Assembly (NCBI GenBank): GCA_951406725.2
Contig: OX597815.1
Location: 28,210,001-28,274,000 of the forward strand
DNA from: Octopus vulgaris
Taxonomy: Eukaryota
Direction of reading: 5' to 3'
Length of the DNA stretch: 64,000 nt
Shown: piece by piece, positions 8,623 through 50,372 of the stretch
Position numbering within the stretch: the stretch's first letter is position 1
Layout of the letters: every line of letters starts with the position of its first letter
Position numbers and translations under genes: made by a program
The notes under the pieces: generated by a model
The model's database searches: none
What the model was told of the DNA's origin: nothing
What the model saw: only the letters and a program-made list of their open reading frames with translations

Positions 8623-9808
8623 TTTATAATTATATATATATCCAAGTGTTAAAATCCAGTCTACATATCTTTCATAGCAAGCAGAACCTCGGAGCCAGGT
8701 GTGTACCACAGGCTACACTTCAGGCCAACGGTATCTTGATTAAATGAAGTTTAACATGGCCCCCTAACAACAAAGTAAACTTCATTTAGTCAAGATATCT
8801 TTCGCCTGAAGAGTAGACCTTGCTTTGGATATTTACCATTTCCAAGGTTCCCTATCCTATAAAACATACATAGTCTGAGTCTTATCTACTTCACCCTTAA
8901 CTCTTGGATTTTTATTTACATACATGAAATATAAAATAATTTTTTTTCAATACGTTGATACAGAAAAAAATCCATAAATTTCAGCCCCAATAAACCACTA
9001 TTGTTCCTGAAAGTTGTCTTTTTATATTTTCTATGCATTGCTTGAAGCTCACTTTCTTCCTACACACCAATCCTTGGATCTTACACTTATATTTATTATC
9101 ATCATCATTATCATTTAGTGTCTGTTGTCCATGCTGACAAGCTGGAAGGCTGCACCAGACTTCAGTCTGTTTTGGTATGGTTTTACTGCTGGATGCCCTT
9201 CCCAATGCCAACCACTTATATACATATATATATATATTATCATTGTTTCAGTGGCCATTTTTCCATACTCACAAAGGTCTGCTGAAATTTGCTGAGGCAG
9301 GATGCTAAATGATGATGATGATGGTGATAATGATGATGAAAGGAGTAGAGTGAAGTTGCTTTCCTGAATACAAATAGCAAAGTTATCTTGAACTGAAATT
9401 CAATGACTGCCCTTCAATATCCTATACATCTAAATATTTAATCAATCATTACACTAATTCTGTTAATGTGTGCCCTTAATTGTTTATGTTGATATTATGC
9501 ACTAAGTTTATGTTTTAATGATATTAACTTGTAATTGTCAAGACTACTTCCAATTGAATAAGTAAAGAACTCGGAAGACATATTAAATAAACAATAGATA
9601 ACATGTATCACAAAGATCCAATGTGGATTCAATTTCCCATTAGTAACTTGACAGCTATTCATGAAACTTCAATAGACATAGATTAAAGCTTCAGCTTCCA
9701 GTGACTTACATTTTGGGGTGGAGGGAGGGAGGGAGAGGTGAAATTATGTAAGTGTGTAAACAAGCAAGGTGTCTGTGTGTACGTGGATATACAAATATAT
9801 GTATATAT

Positions 9809-14449: not shown

Positions 14450-14634
14450 GGGAGAGTTTACGAAAAAAATAAAAGACGAAGACAGGTGGTGTACAAAACA
14501 AACAGATGTATTAGTATAACGCTCTGGAATAGAAAAAGTCTTTTACCTTTCGAGCCTACGCTCTTCTACAGAAAGGGACACAGAAAAAACAAGGAGAGAA
14601 AAAATGTGTGTAGTGGCTAACGATCTATCATGGT

Positions 14635-14672
<38 letters not shown>

Positions 14673-14850
14673 TGATTGATCGTTAGCCACTAAACCTTTT
14701 TTATTTTCTCTCGTTGCTTATTTCTGTGTTCCTTTCTGTTGAAGAGCATAGGCTCAGAATGTAAAAGACTTTCTCACTTCCTGAGCATTAAACTAATACA
14801 TCTGTTTGTTGTTTGCACACCTGTCTTTGTCTTTTGTAAATTCAAACTAT
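14450..14850. mobile_element. Inverted pair of a ~185 bp hammerhead-bearing repeat (family E) around (TA)n
   Basis: 14450-14634 and 14671-14850 are diverged reverse complements. Hammerhead-like folds at 14540-14575 (-) and 14732-14767 (+). Third copy at 31507-31698. Confidence 0.75.
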
Positions 14851-21754: not shown

Positions 21755-22090
21755 CTAGCCTGGCTCAATAGCTAGAGTGTCAGGCTTACAATTTCAAAGT
21801 TCTGAGTTCGATTCCTGGACCAGGCTGTGTGTTGTGTTCTTGAGCAAGACACTTTCTTTTACACTGCTATAATTTACTCAGCCATAGAAATGAGTTGTAA
21901 CATCACAAGTGCCAAACTGTACCAGCCTTTGCATTTCCCTTGGACAGCATCAATGGTATAGAAAGGGGAAACTGGTATGCATGGGTAGCTGCTGGTCTTC
22001 CACAAAACAACCTTGCCTGAACTTGTTCCTTAGAAGGGAACTTTCTAGATGCAATCCTATGGTCACTAATGACTAAAGTGGGGTCTTTTA
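21755..22090 (+). mobile_element. tRNA-headed SINE with CORE-like domain (family F), diverged
   Basis: TGGCTCAATAG...GAGTTCGATTCC head, then TGTTCTTGAGCAAGACACTTT. Homologous to 24855-25179 and 60140-60475. Confidence 0.8.
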
Positions 22091-41735: not shown

Positions 41736-42474
41736 ATGCTAATAATAGCAGCTAGGAATAGGGGTGAGTTTCTTAATTCATAGGTGTACCACTGGACATT
41801 CCATCTTCATGTAGTGTCTCAGCAAAAATCAATCTGGTTTGACAGAGTCAATCTCTGTCTAAGACAAAACCACAGGTAGAGATGGACTCGATACTACAAT
41901 GAACTACTTGTCAAATTTGCAGTAACTTTGCTGTTTAGAGCAGTGGATTCCTAAGAGAACCTAAAACCAGCAAAGCTGACTAAGCCATTTCAGAGTTAAA
42001 TATTTATACTACAGAAATAAAGTAAAACCAGTAACAGGTTGTGTATGGACTTCTTGGAGAATTTAATGTTATATAGTAGAGAGATATCAGTAATCGATTG
42101 GATTTAAGACAGGAATGGATGACATGAGACTATAGTGGTAGATGGTAGCTTCAGTACAATATTTAGTTGGTTTTCTGTTTTCAGTCTAATAGTAACAGTT
42201 TCTTTCAGAAAGTACATAGTCTCAGATTTATAAGGAAATGAAAATGGAAGATCATATCACAGGGAACTGAAAATGAGTCTGAGGCATGACTTGTTTGAAA
42301 ATGCTGCTATATCACATCACCAGGATTGTGATTACTATGAATAATGATGGTGCACTTATTATAACTAAATCTGTATTCTTAGCAAGTCATAAAAACCATG
42401 GAATAAACTGTCTGAGGAGATTCTATCACATCTGCAGTAGCAGGGCTGTGGAATACAAAACTATCTTAAATTTC

Positions 42475-42702
42475 ATTATTTACATTTGACTGATATTTGT
42501 CCTCATCTGGTTTGTTGTTAACACAGTGTTTCGGCTGATATACCCTCCAGCCTTCATCAGGTGTCTTGGGGAAATTTCGAACCTGATGAAGGCTGGAGAG
42601 TATATCAGCTGAAGCGTTGTGTTAACAACAAACAAGATGAGGGCAAATATCAGTCAAATGTAAATAATGTACATAATTCCTCATCTCTTAAATATAGAAC
42701 TG
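42475..42702. mobile_element. Fold-back element with a hammerhead motif in each arm and a 13-bp TSD
   Basis: 89-bp arms at 42474-42562 and 42581-42669 with an 18-bp spacer. TSD TATCTTAAATTTC at 42462-42474 and 42703-42715. Core CTGATGA-A-GGCTG...CAGCC-GAAAC. Confidence 0.85.
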
Positions 42703-43669
42703 TATCTTAAATTTCTTGAGTAGTTTGGTACTTTATTATGCTAAGATTGTAGCTGTCTCAGTCTAAATTAAATAAATAAATATAAACCAAATTAATTTGC
42801 TAAAAATATCAAAAGAATCCCTGAAGGAAACTGTAGAAATAAGTGTTTATTAAAAAATACTTCTGTATACTAAATTGTAAGTATGTCCAATAATGTTATA
42901 AAATCTAATCCATTAGATTAATAACAAATATAGTCAAGAGTTTGGTAGGATGAACATCATTCAGATAACACATAAATTGAGATAGTATTTCTTTAATTTT
43001 AATAAATCTTAGAGACAGATTATTTCTTAAGGATGTATTTACTGATTAAATTCTAACTTTGGATAGGCTGAATCTCAGGGAAAAATGTTTCTAATTAACT
43101 GTTTTTCTGTAAGAAAGGAAAACTTAATGTAGTAACTAAATCTCATATGGTATACTAGAAGCAAGAGCTAACTTACTAAAGAATTGATTGAATTTTATCA
43201 TTCTGTATAAAATGTATAAAAAAGAGTGTCCTGATACTGAATCATAAAAACAACAAAAATTATTAACTATTTCATGACAATATTTCAATAATTTTAATGA
43301 ATAGGCAGTTCATGTATCTCAATTCAATAAGCATTTTAGTGGCTTAAAAAATCTGTAACTCTATATAGTGATATAATATTATGCTTATGTTAACCAACTG
43401 AAATTTCATGAGGTCATTAATACTGTGAGATTTTGGTATAGGTTGTCTCGAGTGAGTTGTATTTAAAAGGATTAATAAAACTTAAGTTTATTTTAGCAAG
43501 GACAGCCATAAAGTTGTCCAAAACATCATATATGTGAGAATGAAACAAGAAGACAACGAAAGGATATTTCAATAAAAATGCAGCAAAAATTAACAATAAA
43601 AAAAAATCCCCACCTCTCAGAAGTCTGCTAATAACTTATCTTAAAAATATACATATTGAACCATGCCTT

Positions 43670-49987: not shown

Positions 49988-50372
49988 CCATGTTACACAA
50001 TCAACTCTACCTTTCTTTTCTGACCACTTTTCTTTGTGAAATATAATGTAGTGTTCACAAACACAAATTGATACATCAACTAACATGTGACAATCTTCAT
50101 TCTCATTTCTTTACTAACCATTTGTGTGAGACATAAAACTCATTGTTGTTTGGGCTGATGAAGTTTTTACTATTAGCAATAAGCATAAAAAATTGAAAAT
50201 TCATTGATATGACTTAATCTTGACACTTATTGTGATAGTAAATACATTAAAGCATTTTAATAAGCATTTTAATACTGCACCTATTCTGCCAGTAATATAG
50301 TTTTGTTATTTTAATTATTATGCTAATTTTCTGAATAGGATTGTTACTTAATTACTTTCGCATAATTTAAAT

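What the first reader, a model, noticed from the sequence alone, without database searches (positions are those of the whole stretch)
42462..42715. Self-contained 228-bp hairpin element with two outward-facing hammerheads and a 13-bp TSD
Seen: 89-bp inverted arms, each with CUGAUGA-A-GGCUG-(10 nt)-CAGC(C/U)-GAA(A/G)C, an asymmetric ~33-bp extension on the right and a perfect 13-bp TSD. Merging arms gives GACAC-CUGAUGA...GAAAC-GUU-GUGUU with a loopless palindromic stem III (AACGUU). Each arm carries different disabling changes. Known: such minimal hammerheads occur in PLE repeats and cleave as dimers. Inference: a non-coding, ribozyme-bearing fold-back retroelement that looks like a MITE but would move via PLE machinery. 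It is the best candidate here for an under-described system, echoed by unrelated families at 8636-8912 and 14450-14850.
Basis: partly seen in the sequence, partly recalled or inferred. Interest (0 to 1): 0.75.

Follow-up and report, generated by a model that had tools for sequence, protein, structure and literature searches.

The report
Back-to-back Penelope retrotransposon stubs
This hairpin is two short end-pieces of a very common Penelope-type jumping gene inserted back to back, likely a dead by-product rather than a new mobile element; the only unusual point is that the parent gene's end repeat starts with a tRNA-like promoter and may be read by RNA polymerase III.

Summary
The hairpin, both hammerhead motifs, the 33-bp extension and the 13-bp TSD are real. 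The self-contained element is not supported. The arms are end-repeat (pLTR) pieces of a high-copy Penelope/Poseidon-type retrotransposon (about 2.65-kb unit, 835-aa ORF; 6,355 exact arm words). Of 85 loci chosen without regard to junction, 52 are head-to-head pairs with 52 different junctions. The window's junction is a 5-nt microhomology found 11 times, against 5,260 for the unbroken word; those copies share no diagnostic variant and carry the tail on either arm. TSDs vary, mostly 10-16 bp. Both window hammerheads have core changes and would be locked in the hairpin. This architecture is published. Side lead: the pLTR, upstream of the part in the window, has tRNA-like A/B boxes; 64 of 72 arms stop there, and the unit has no T4 run (control family: 6). 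That fits Pol III transcription but is untested. The scan noted both readings before on other DNA (e1-8669850, same genome). Interest 0.28.

The parts
42462..42474 (.). Left copy of 13-bp target-site duplication
   Evidence: sequence; family TSDs vary in length
42475..42585 (-). Inverted, tail-less pLTR stub (family positions +125 to +235, counting from the start of the tRNA-like segment)
   Evidence: RNA reads leave the window at 42585 into the parent sequence (1,011 reads in run X21)
42520..42565 (-). Minimal type I hammerhead motif, minus strand; stem I and II intact, CGU changed to CAC (U16.1 lost)
42581..42585 (.). 5-nt microhomology (ACCTG) shared by the two arms: the actual junction
   Evidence: one of six 5-nt inverted matches in +94..+190 of the family sequence
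42581..42702 (+). Sense pLTR stub with tail (family positions +148 to +269); in the parent this is also the 5' part of the ORF
42583..42623 (+). Minimal type I hammerhead motif, plus strand; GAAA changed to GAAG, 5' strand of stem I missing
42670..42702 (+). 33-bp one-sided PLE 'tail'
   Evidence: tail on one arm only in 48 of 52 inverted pairs
42703..42715 (.). Right copy of the TSD; first 3 nt also match the parent's continuation

Best explanation
The 228-bp hairpin is a head-to-head pair of short end-repeat pieces of an abundant Penelope/Poseidon-type retrotransposon, likely laid down in one insertion event and likely a dead end. Shown: arm identity with the autonomous family, mixed breakpoints, one-sided tail, variable TSD, 5-nt overlap at the join. 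Inferred: the element's RT-endonuclease cut both target strands about 13 bp apart and primed two cDNAs on the element RNA, one from the outer start site (+269, with tail) and one from the inner site (about +235 to +244); both stopped early and were joined through ACCTG/CAGGT. The same join recurs in a few tens of loci because the microhomology is built into the pLTR, not because the hairpin copies itself. The stub lacks the tRNA-like promoter segment, both ribozyme cores are mutated, and a read-through RNA would fold into one long duplex.
For: 6,355 exact arm words. Arm follows RT-EN remnants and a tRNA-like segment in 25 of 30 long loci; 835-aa ORF whose start overlaps hammerhead and tail, as in PAc (PMC11167929) and Pen2a (PMC3846280). 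52 of 85 loci inverted, 52 distinct junction pairs, none the window's. Junction word 11 vs unbroken word 5,260. TSD 10-16 bp in 25 of 27 short hairpins and >=10 bp in 28 of 48 other pairs, against 8 of 300 shuffled controls. No diagnostic variant among 29 short hairpins; divergence 6.0% vs 5.4% in 36 longer pairs. Arms of one insertion share more variants than arms of different insertions (15 vs 7.3; 24 vs 10.3). Core fully paired on both strands.
Against: Tail sits on the short arm in 10 of 13 scored junction copies (p=0.09) against 24:22 in the general class, a weak hint of a shared source. A source hairpin identical to the family majority would leave no diagnostic variant. One window-specific double change is shared with L026. 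Sequence alone cannot tell joining during insertion from later deletion. Some arm ends are blurred by the AAT run and by palindromes.
Confidence: 0.7

Rival explanations
1. The insertion began as a longer head-to-head pair of the same PLE, and its middle was later deleted in DNA between the two direct ACCTG copies. Still an ordinary dead PLE stub; only the timing of the join differs.
For: Longer pairs contain both ACCTG copies; deletion could keep either side, giving both orientations seen; microhomology-mediated deletions of Penelope copies are reported (PMC3846280, passages).
Against: Short overlaps at the join are common across the longer pairs too (negative gaps), which points to joining as part of insertion; no direct evidence either way.
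Confidence: 0.2
2. One reading: a non-coding fold-back element that is itself transcribed and re-inserted by PLE enzymes, forming its own subfamily.
For: The same junction recurs in 15 family loci among 17 pattern hits, one of them a variant join; mild bias of tail side; PLE enzymes can act in trans on pLTR-bounded sequence (PMC3846280, passages).
Against: About 0.2% of arm words; both orientations; length 231-251 bp and end repeats vary; no shared variants or fixed arm asymmetry; neighbouring junction variants exist (L008, L013, L017, L019, L024, L025); no promoter; ribozymes on opposite strands.
Confidence: 0.07
3. An ordinary MITE moved by a DDE transposase.
For: Short, non-coding, inverted repeats, TSD.
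Against: Ends are not inverted repeats of each other; TSD length varies; arms are part of an RT-encoding unit.
Confidence: 0.01

Closest known systems
Insertion units of EN+ Penelope-like elements: pLTR, adjacent inverted 5'-truncated copy, one-sided 30-40 bp tail, TSD (PMC8557442 passages; Adineta Pen2a, PMC3846280 passages)
   Same: Head-to-head arms, overlap at the join, tail on one end, variable TSD of about 9-16 bp, pLTR plus tail encoding the ORF's first residues.
   Different: Both arms are cut to about 110-120 bp and no ORF body remains; the join recurs at a built-in 5-nt microhomology.
Opposite-strand pairs of minimal hammerheads 100-700 bp apart from truncated PLEs (Cervera and de la Pena 2014, PMC4209133, parts 1-2 of 4 read)
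   Same: Minimal type I motif with 5-bp stem I, extra base between positions 9 and 10.1, palindromic 15.2-16.2 pair; two copies on opposite strands.
   Different: Cores here are only about 23 bp apart, closer than the reported range, and both are mutated.
PAc (Poseidon of the green anole; PMC11167929, parts 1-2 of 4 read)
   Same: Hammerhead overlapping the ORF start; two preferred 3' ends (here +269 and about +235 to +244) bracketing the tail; AT-rich targets.
   Different: The pLTR here holds a tRNA-like A/B-box segment and an (AAT)n run; no such segment appeared in the parts read.
Metazoan non-LTR retrozymes (PMC7761336 passages; bioRxiv 10.64898/2026.07.22.740005 part 1 of 5)
   Same: Non-coding, type I hammerhead, PLE-related.
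   Different: Retrozymes are same-strand tandem repeats that release circular RNA; this is an inverted pair with one motif per strand.
TRIMp3 elements Helenus, Ajax, Cassandra (PMC10886601 passages), for the parent family only
   Same: A small-RNA-derived A/B-box segment inside a terminal repeat.
   Different: Those are non-autonomous LTR elements; here it is the pLTR of a protein-coding PLE. That paper argues autonomous partners must use Pol II.

Membership tests
EN+ Penelope-like element (Penelope/Poseidon type), truncated inverted insertion | Arm belongs to a unit with a single ORF, RT followed by C-terminal endonuclease | tested here: met
   835-aa ORF; RVT_1 33.1 bits over cut-off 29.6 on a real copy; arm follows the ORF end in 25 of 30 loci
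EN+ Penelope-like element (Penelope/Poseidon type), truncated inverted insertion | GIY-YIG endonuclease with CCHH motif | tested here: inconclusive
   Motif readable by eye; Pfam gave no hit on the C-terminal fragment; 3 of 72 homologues list PF01541 (recalled as GIY-YIG)
EN+ Penelope-like element (Penelope/Poseidon type), truncated inverted insertion | pLTR with minimal type I hammerhead, overlapping ORF start in partial tandems | tested here: met
   Tail runs into the ORF in L260, L274, L275; intact core in 51 of 136 arms
EN+ Penelope-like element (Penelope/Poseidon type), truncated inverted insertion | Inverted 5'-truncated copy, one-sided 30-40 bp tail, variable TSD | tested here: met
EN+ Penelope-like element (Penelope/Poseidon type), truncated inverted insertion | Placement in the Penelope/Poseidon clade by RT phylogeny | not tested
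   No tree built; assigned from domain order and lack of the extra Cys linker seen in the control family
Self-cleaving PLE hammerhead (this copy) | Intact conserved core and stem I | tested here: not met
   GAAG and missing stem I strand on +; U16.1 lost on -
Self-cleaving PLE hammerhead (family) | Cleavage as a dimer | not testable with these tools
   needs in vitro assay
Non-LTR retrozyme | Same-strand tandem units each with a hammerhead | tested here: not met
   inverted pair, one motif per strand
MITE (DDE-mobilised) | Terminal inverted repeats reaching both ends and fixed-length TSD | tested here: not met
Independent non-autonomous subfamily | Copies share fixed structure and diagnostic variants | tested here: not met
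Pol III-transcribed retroelement (parent family) | A and B boxes at the 5' end and no T4+ run in the transcribed strand | tested here: met
Pol III-transcribed retroelement (parent family) | Transcription by Pol III from that promoter | not testable with these tools
   RNA-seq laid was not informative

The most novel reading that the evidence does not exclude
The parent is a protein-coding Penelope element that has captured a tRNA-derived internal promoter and is transcribed over its whole 2.65-kb unit by RNA polymerase III. Its RNA starts at about -6, and reverse transcription from the first tail downstream yields the mass of SINE-sized copies, with the hammerhead freeing the uncapped RNA's coding part. 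The window hairpin is a stub of this family that has lost the promoter.
Probability: 0.4. Interest if true: 0.65.

Novelty: new member of a known kind. Interest (0 to 1): 0.28.

Why it matters
The hairpin itself matters little: it is a typical PLE insertion scar, useful as one clean example of joining at a short overlap. The parent family matters more if the Pol III reading holds: an autonomous, protein-coding retrotransposon read by Pol III would blur the LINE/SINE division of promoters and would give a testable role for the PLE hammerhead (making an uncapped RNA translatable), which is an open question in the papers read.

Tried and rejected
Rfam: no hammerhead in the window; no tRNA or hammerhead on six family loci or on a 341-nt pLTR stretch. 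ARAGORN at a lowered threshold gave mostly noise. The tRNA-like segment does not fold as a cloverleaf (z -0.33). A separate tRNA-headed SINE was considered and dropped: 22 of 30 loci picked by the tRNA word carry the arm within 520 nt, the other 8 run into the AAT repeat and then unrelated sequence or an insertion, and the segment is contiguous with the ORF. Sequencing runs: no RNA holder listed. Three raw RNA runs of one study, added by species label, hold family reads on both mate directions with no piled-up starts or ends; one of them has no reads on the window's unique flanks, so nothing follows for this locus, for small RNAs or for editing. A contig of run X17 enters the left arm by only 27 letters, too few to show a shared insertion. 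Pfam on five long open frames found RVT_1 below cut-off in 2 of 5. PMC5785218 (dimer cleavage) was not held; it is cited only through PMC7761336. No intact full-length copy was found among the loci fetched (longest open stretches). Repbase and Dfam are not available here, so the family may already have a name. Literature searches for a tRNA or Pol III promoter in a PLE listed no such report; the library lacks most subscription journals, and no supplements were read.

Full report
Observation. Inverted arms of 89 nt (42474-42562, 42581-42669; 92%) flank 18 nt; a perfect 13-bp duplication lies at 42462-42474 and 42703-42715, and 42670-42702 is present on the right only. The RNA folds at -144.1 kcal/mol, z -19.85. 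Each arm holds a minimal type I hammerhead. The plus-strand copy has GAAG for GAAA and lacks the 5' strand of stem I; the minus-strand copy has lost the U before the cut site (family letters at these places). Rfam does not score them.

Copies of the whole hairpin. The window lies in a 2.8-Gb animal genome. The 228-bp query gave 3,022 candidates, 40 scored, 30 loci fetched, many covering the full length, which at first looks like a family. That search selects for the window's junction, so I sampled again without it: by the outer arm alone and by an exact 21-nt arm word, which has 6,355 sites and 0 control hits.

Breakpoints. From the 100 sites listed I took 85 distinct loci (30 loci less 5 duplicates, plus 60 stretches; all on one contig). 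52 are head-to-head pairs and 33 single arms. The 52 pairs have 52 different junction coordinates, none the window's; some coordinates are blurred by a microsatellite and by palindromes. 48 of 52 have the tail on one arm only, on the longer arm in 24, the shorter in 22, equal in 2. TSDs were 10 bp or longer in 28 of 48 such pairs and 10-16 bp in 25 of 27 short hairpins, against 8 of 300 shuffled pairings.

The window's junction. The 'spacer' is simply more of the left arm's parent sequence. The join is the 5-nt overlap ACCTG at 42581-42585, where the inverted copy (+125) meets the sense copy (+148); it is one of six 5-nt inverted matches in that stretch, and RNA reads leave the window at 42585 into the parent sequence. 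The exact junction word occurs 11 times, the unbroken word 5,260 times. A looser word gave 17 hits, 15 in the family and 2 chance; the tail is on the short arm in 10, on the long arm in 3, unscored in 4 (p=0.09). Among 29 short hairpins no variant outside CpG sites is shared by more than 6, the commonest ones are those of 36 longer pairs, and there is no fixed left/right difference (one row, L097, is truncated and misaligned). So the join recurs but shows no sign of descent from one hairpin. The tail-side bias is the one result that leans the other way.

The parent. Upstream of the arm, L047 and L072 carry RT and endonuclease remnants; 25 of 30 loci found with that ORF end continue into the same end repeat, 5 near-identical ones do not. 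In L260, L274 and L275 the tail runs on into the ORF. A majority of copies computed in the script gives a 2,652-nt unit with an 835-aa ORF that starts just upstream of the hammerhead. A real fragment passes the Pfam RVT_1 cut-off; the endonuclease fragment gave no Pfam hit. This is the layout described for PAc and Pen2a. No tree was built, so the clade name rests on domain layout.

Mechanism. Shown: identity of the arms, two preferred outer ends (+269; mostly +232 to +244), overlap at the join, TSD, and an excess of variants shared between the arms of one insertion. From PMC11167929: RT starts at two internal sites that bracket the tail and both target strands are cut. Inferred: two cDNAs primed from opposite target strands, stopped early and joined at ACCTG. 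Later deletion from a longer pair cannot be excluded, nor self-priming as proposed in PMC3846280. The two hammerheads are on opposite strands, so one transcript cannot form the dimer, and the core is fully paired in the hairpin on either strand.

What is known. Opposite-strand minimal hammerheads 100-700 bp apart from truncated PLEs are reported in PMC4209133; the inverted copy and one-sided tail in PMC8557442 and PMC3846280. Earlier scan notes on other genomes reach the same reading; they are not independent support.

Side lead. The pLTR begins with a tRNA-like segment, outside the window's stub: A box at +8, B box at +53, closest to two tRNA-Arg genes among 25 distinct tRNA sequences of this genome (z 9.6 and 8.2; not all isotypes sampled), followed by (AAT)n. 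Of 72 arms that reach this segment, 64 end between -20 and +33, 1 at -29, and 7 run past -150. The sense strand of the whole unit has no T4 run (codon-shuffle mean 2.9, P=0.028); a second PLE family of equal T content has 6, and its copies have 102 runs in 28,755 nt against 11 in 22,680 nt (one control family only). This fits transcription by Pol III from the pLTR. Against: a palindrome at -6 to +4 visibly causes fold-back in many copies and could itself make the pile-up; Rfam does not call the segment a tRNA; RNA-seq showed no defined starts. Note e1-8669850 on another piece of this genome had reached this reading, which I saw. Five literature searches listed no such report.

Papers seen: PMC4209133 and PMC11167929, parts 1-2 of 4; bioRxiv 10.64898/2026.07.22.740005, part 1 of 5; PMC8557442, PMC3846280, PMC7761336, PMC10886601, passages; no supplements.

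Verdict. Real feature, ordinary origin: a back-to-back PLE stub pair (PLE origin near certain; joined at insertion 0.7). Interest 0.28, most of it from the parent's possible Pol III promoter (probability 0.4, interest 0.65 if true).

Noticed in passing
L113:2238-2312 and other family loci (not in the window stub): tRNA-Arg-like A/B-box segment at the head of the pLTR, where most 5' ends pile up; whole unit free of T4 runs on the sense strand.
   Followed up: yes
family position -6 to +4 (e.g. L083, L160, L194, L221): A short palindrome at the pile-up; sequence upstream of it often reads as the reverse complement of the head, i.e. cDNA fold-back.
   Followed up: partly
window 8636-8912 and 14450-14850: Each reads as an inverted pair of a different repeat with hammerhead-like words; no match to this family. 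A strict core scan of the window found 42560(-) and one AT-rich hit at 50155 with no matching 3' part.
   Followed up: partly
L090, L105, L206, L103, L115, L117, L204: The (AAT)n run and head of the pLTR are frequent landing sites for other retroelements, LINE-like coding pieces and short repeats.
   Followed up: no
L282-L311: A second, lower-copy PLE family (32% identical over 432 aa) with an extra Cys linker, Neptune-like by recalled motif; used only as control.
   Followed up: partly
L123, L124, L125, L127, L128; L130, L131: Near-identical copies of the ORF with other downstream sequence, several on contig C31, suggesting amplification inside a larger repeat.
   Followed up: no
window 21758-21826 (+): Weak tRNA match (26.6 bits, below cut-off) in another repeat.
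   Followed up: no
tail end of 52 distinct arms: The bases after the tail are TAT in 20 and TA in 14 of 52, matching the parent's continuation: short element-target complementarity or a longer copied end.
   Followed up: partly
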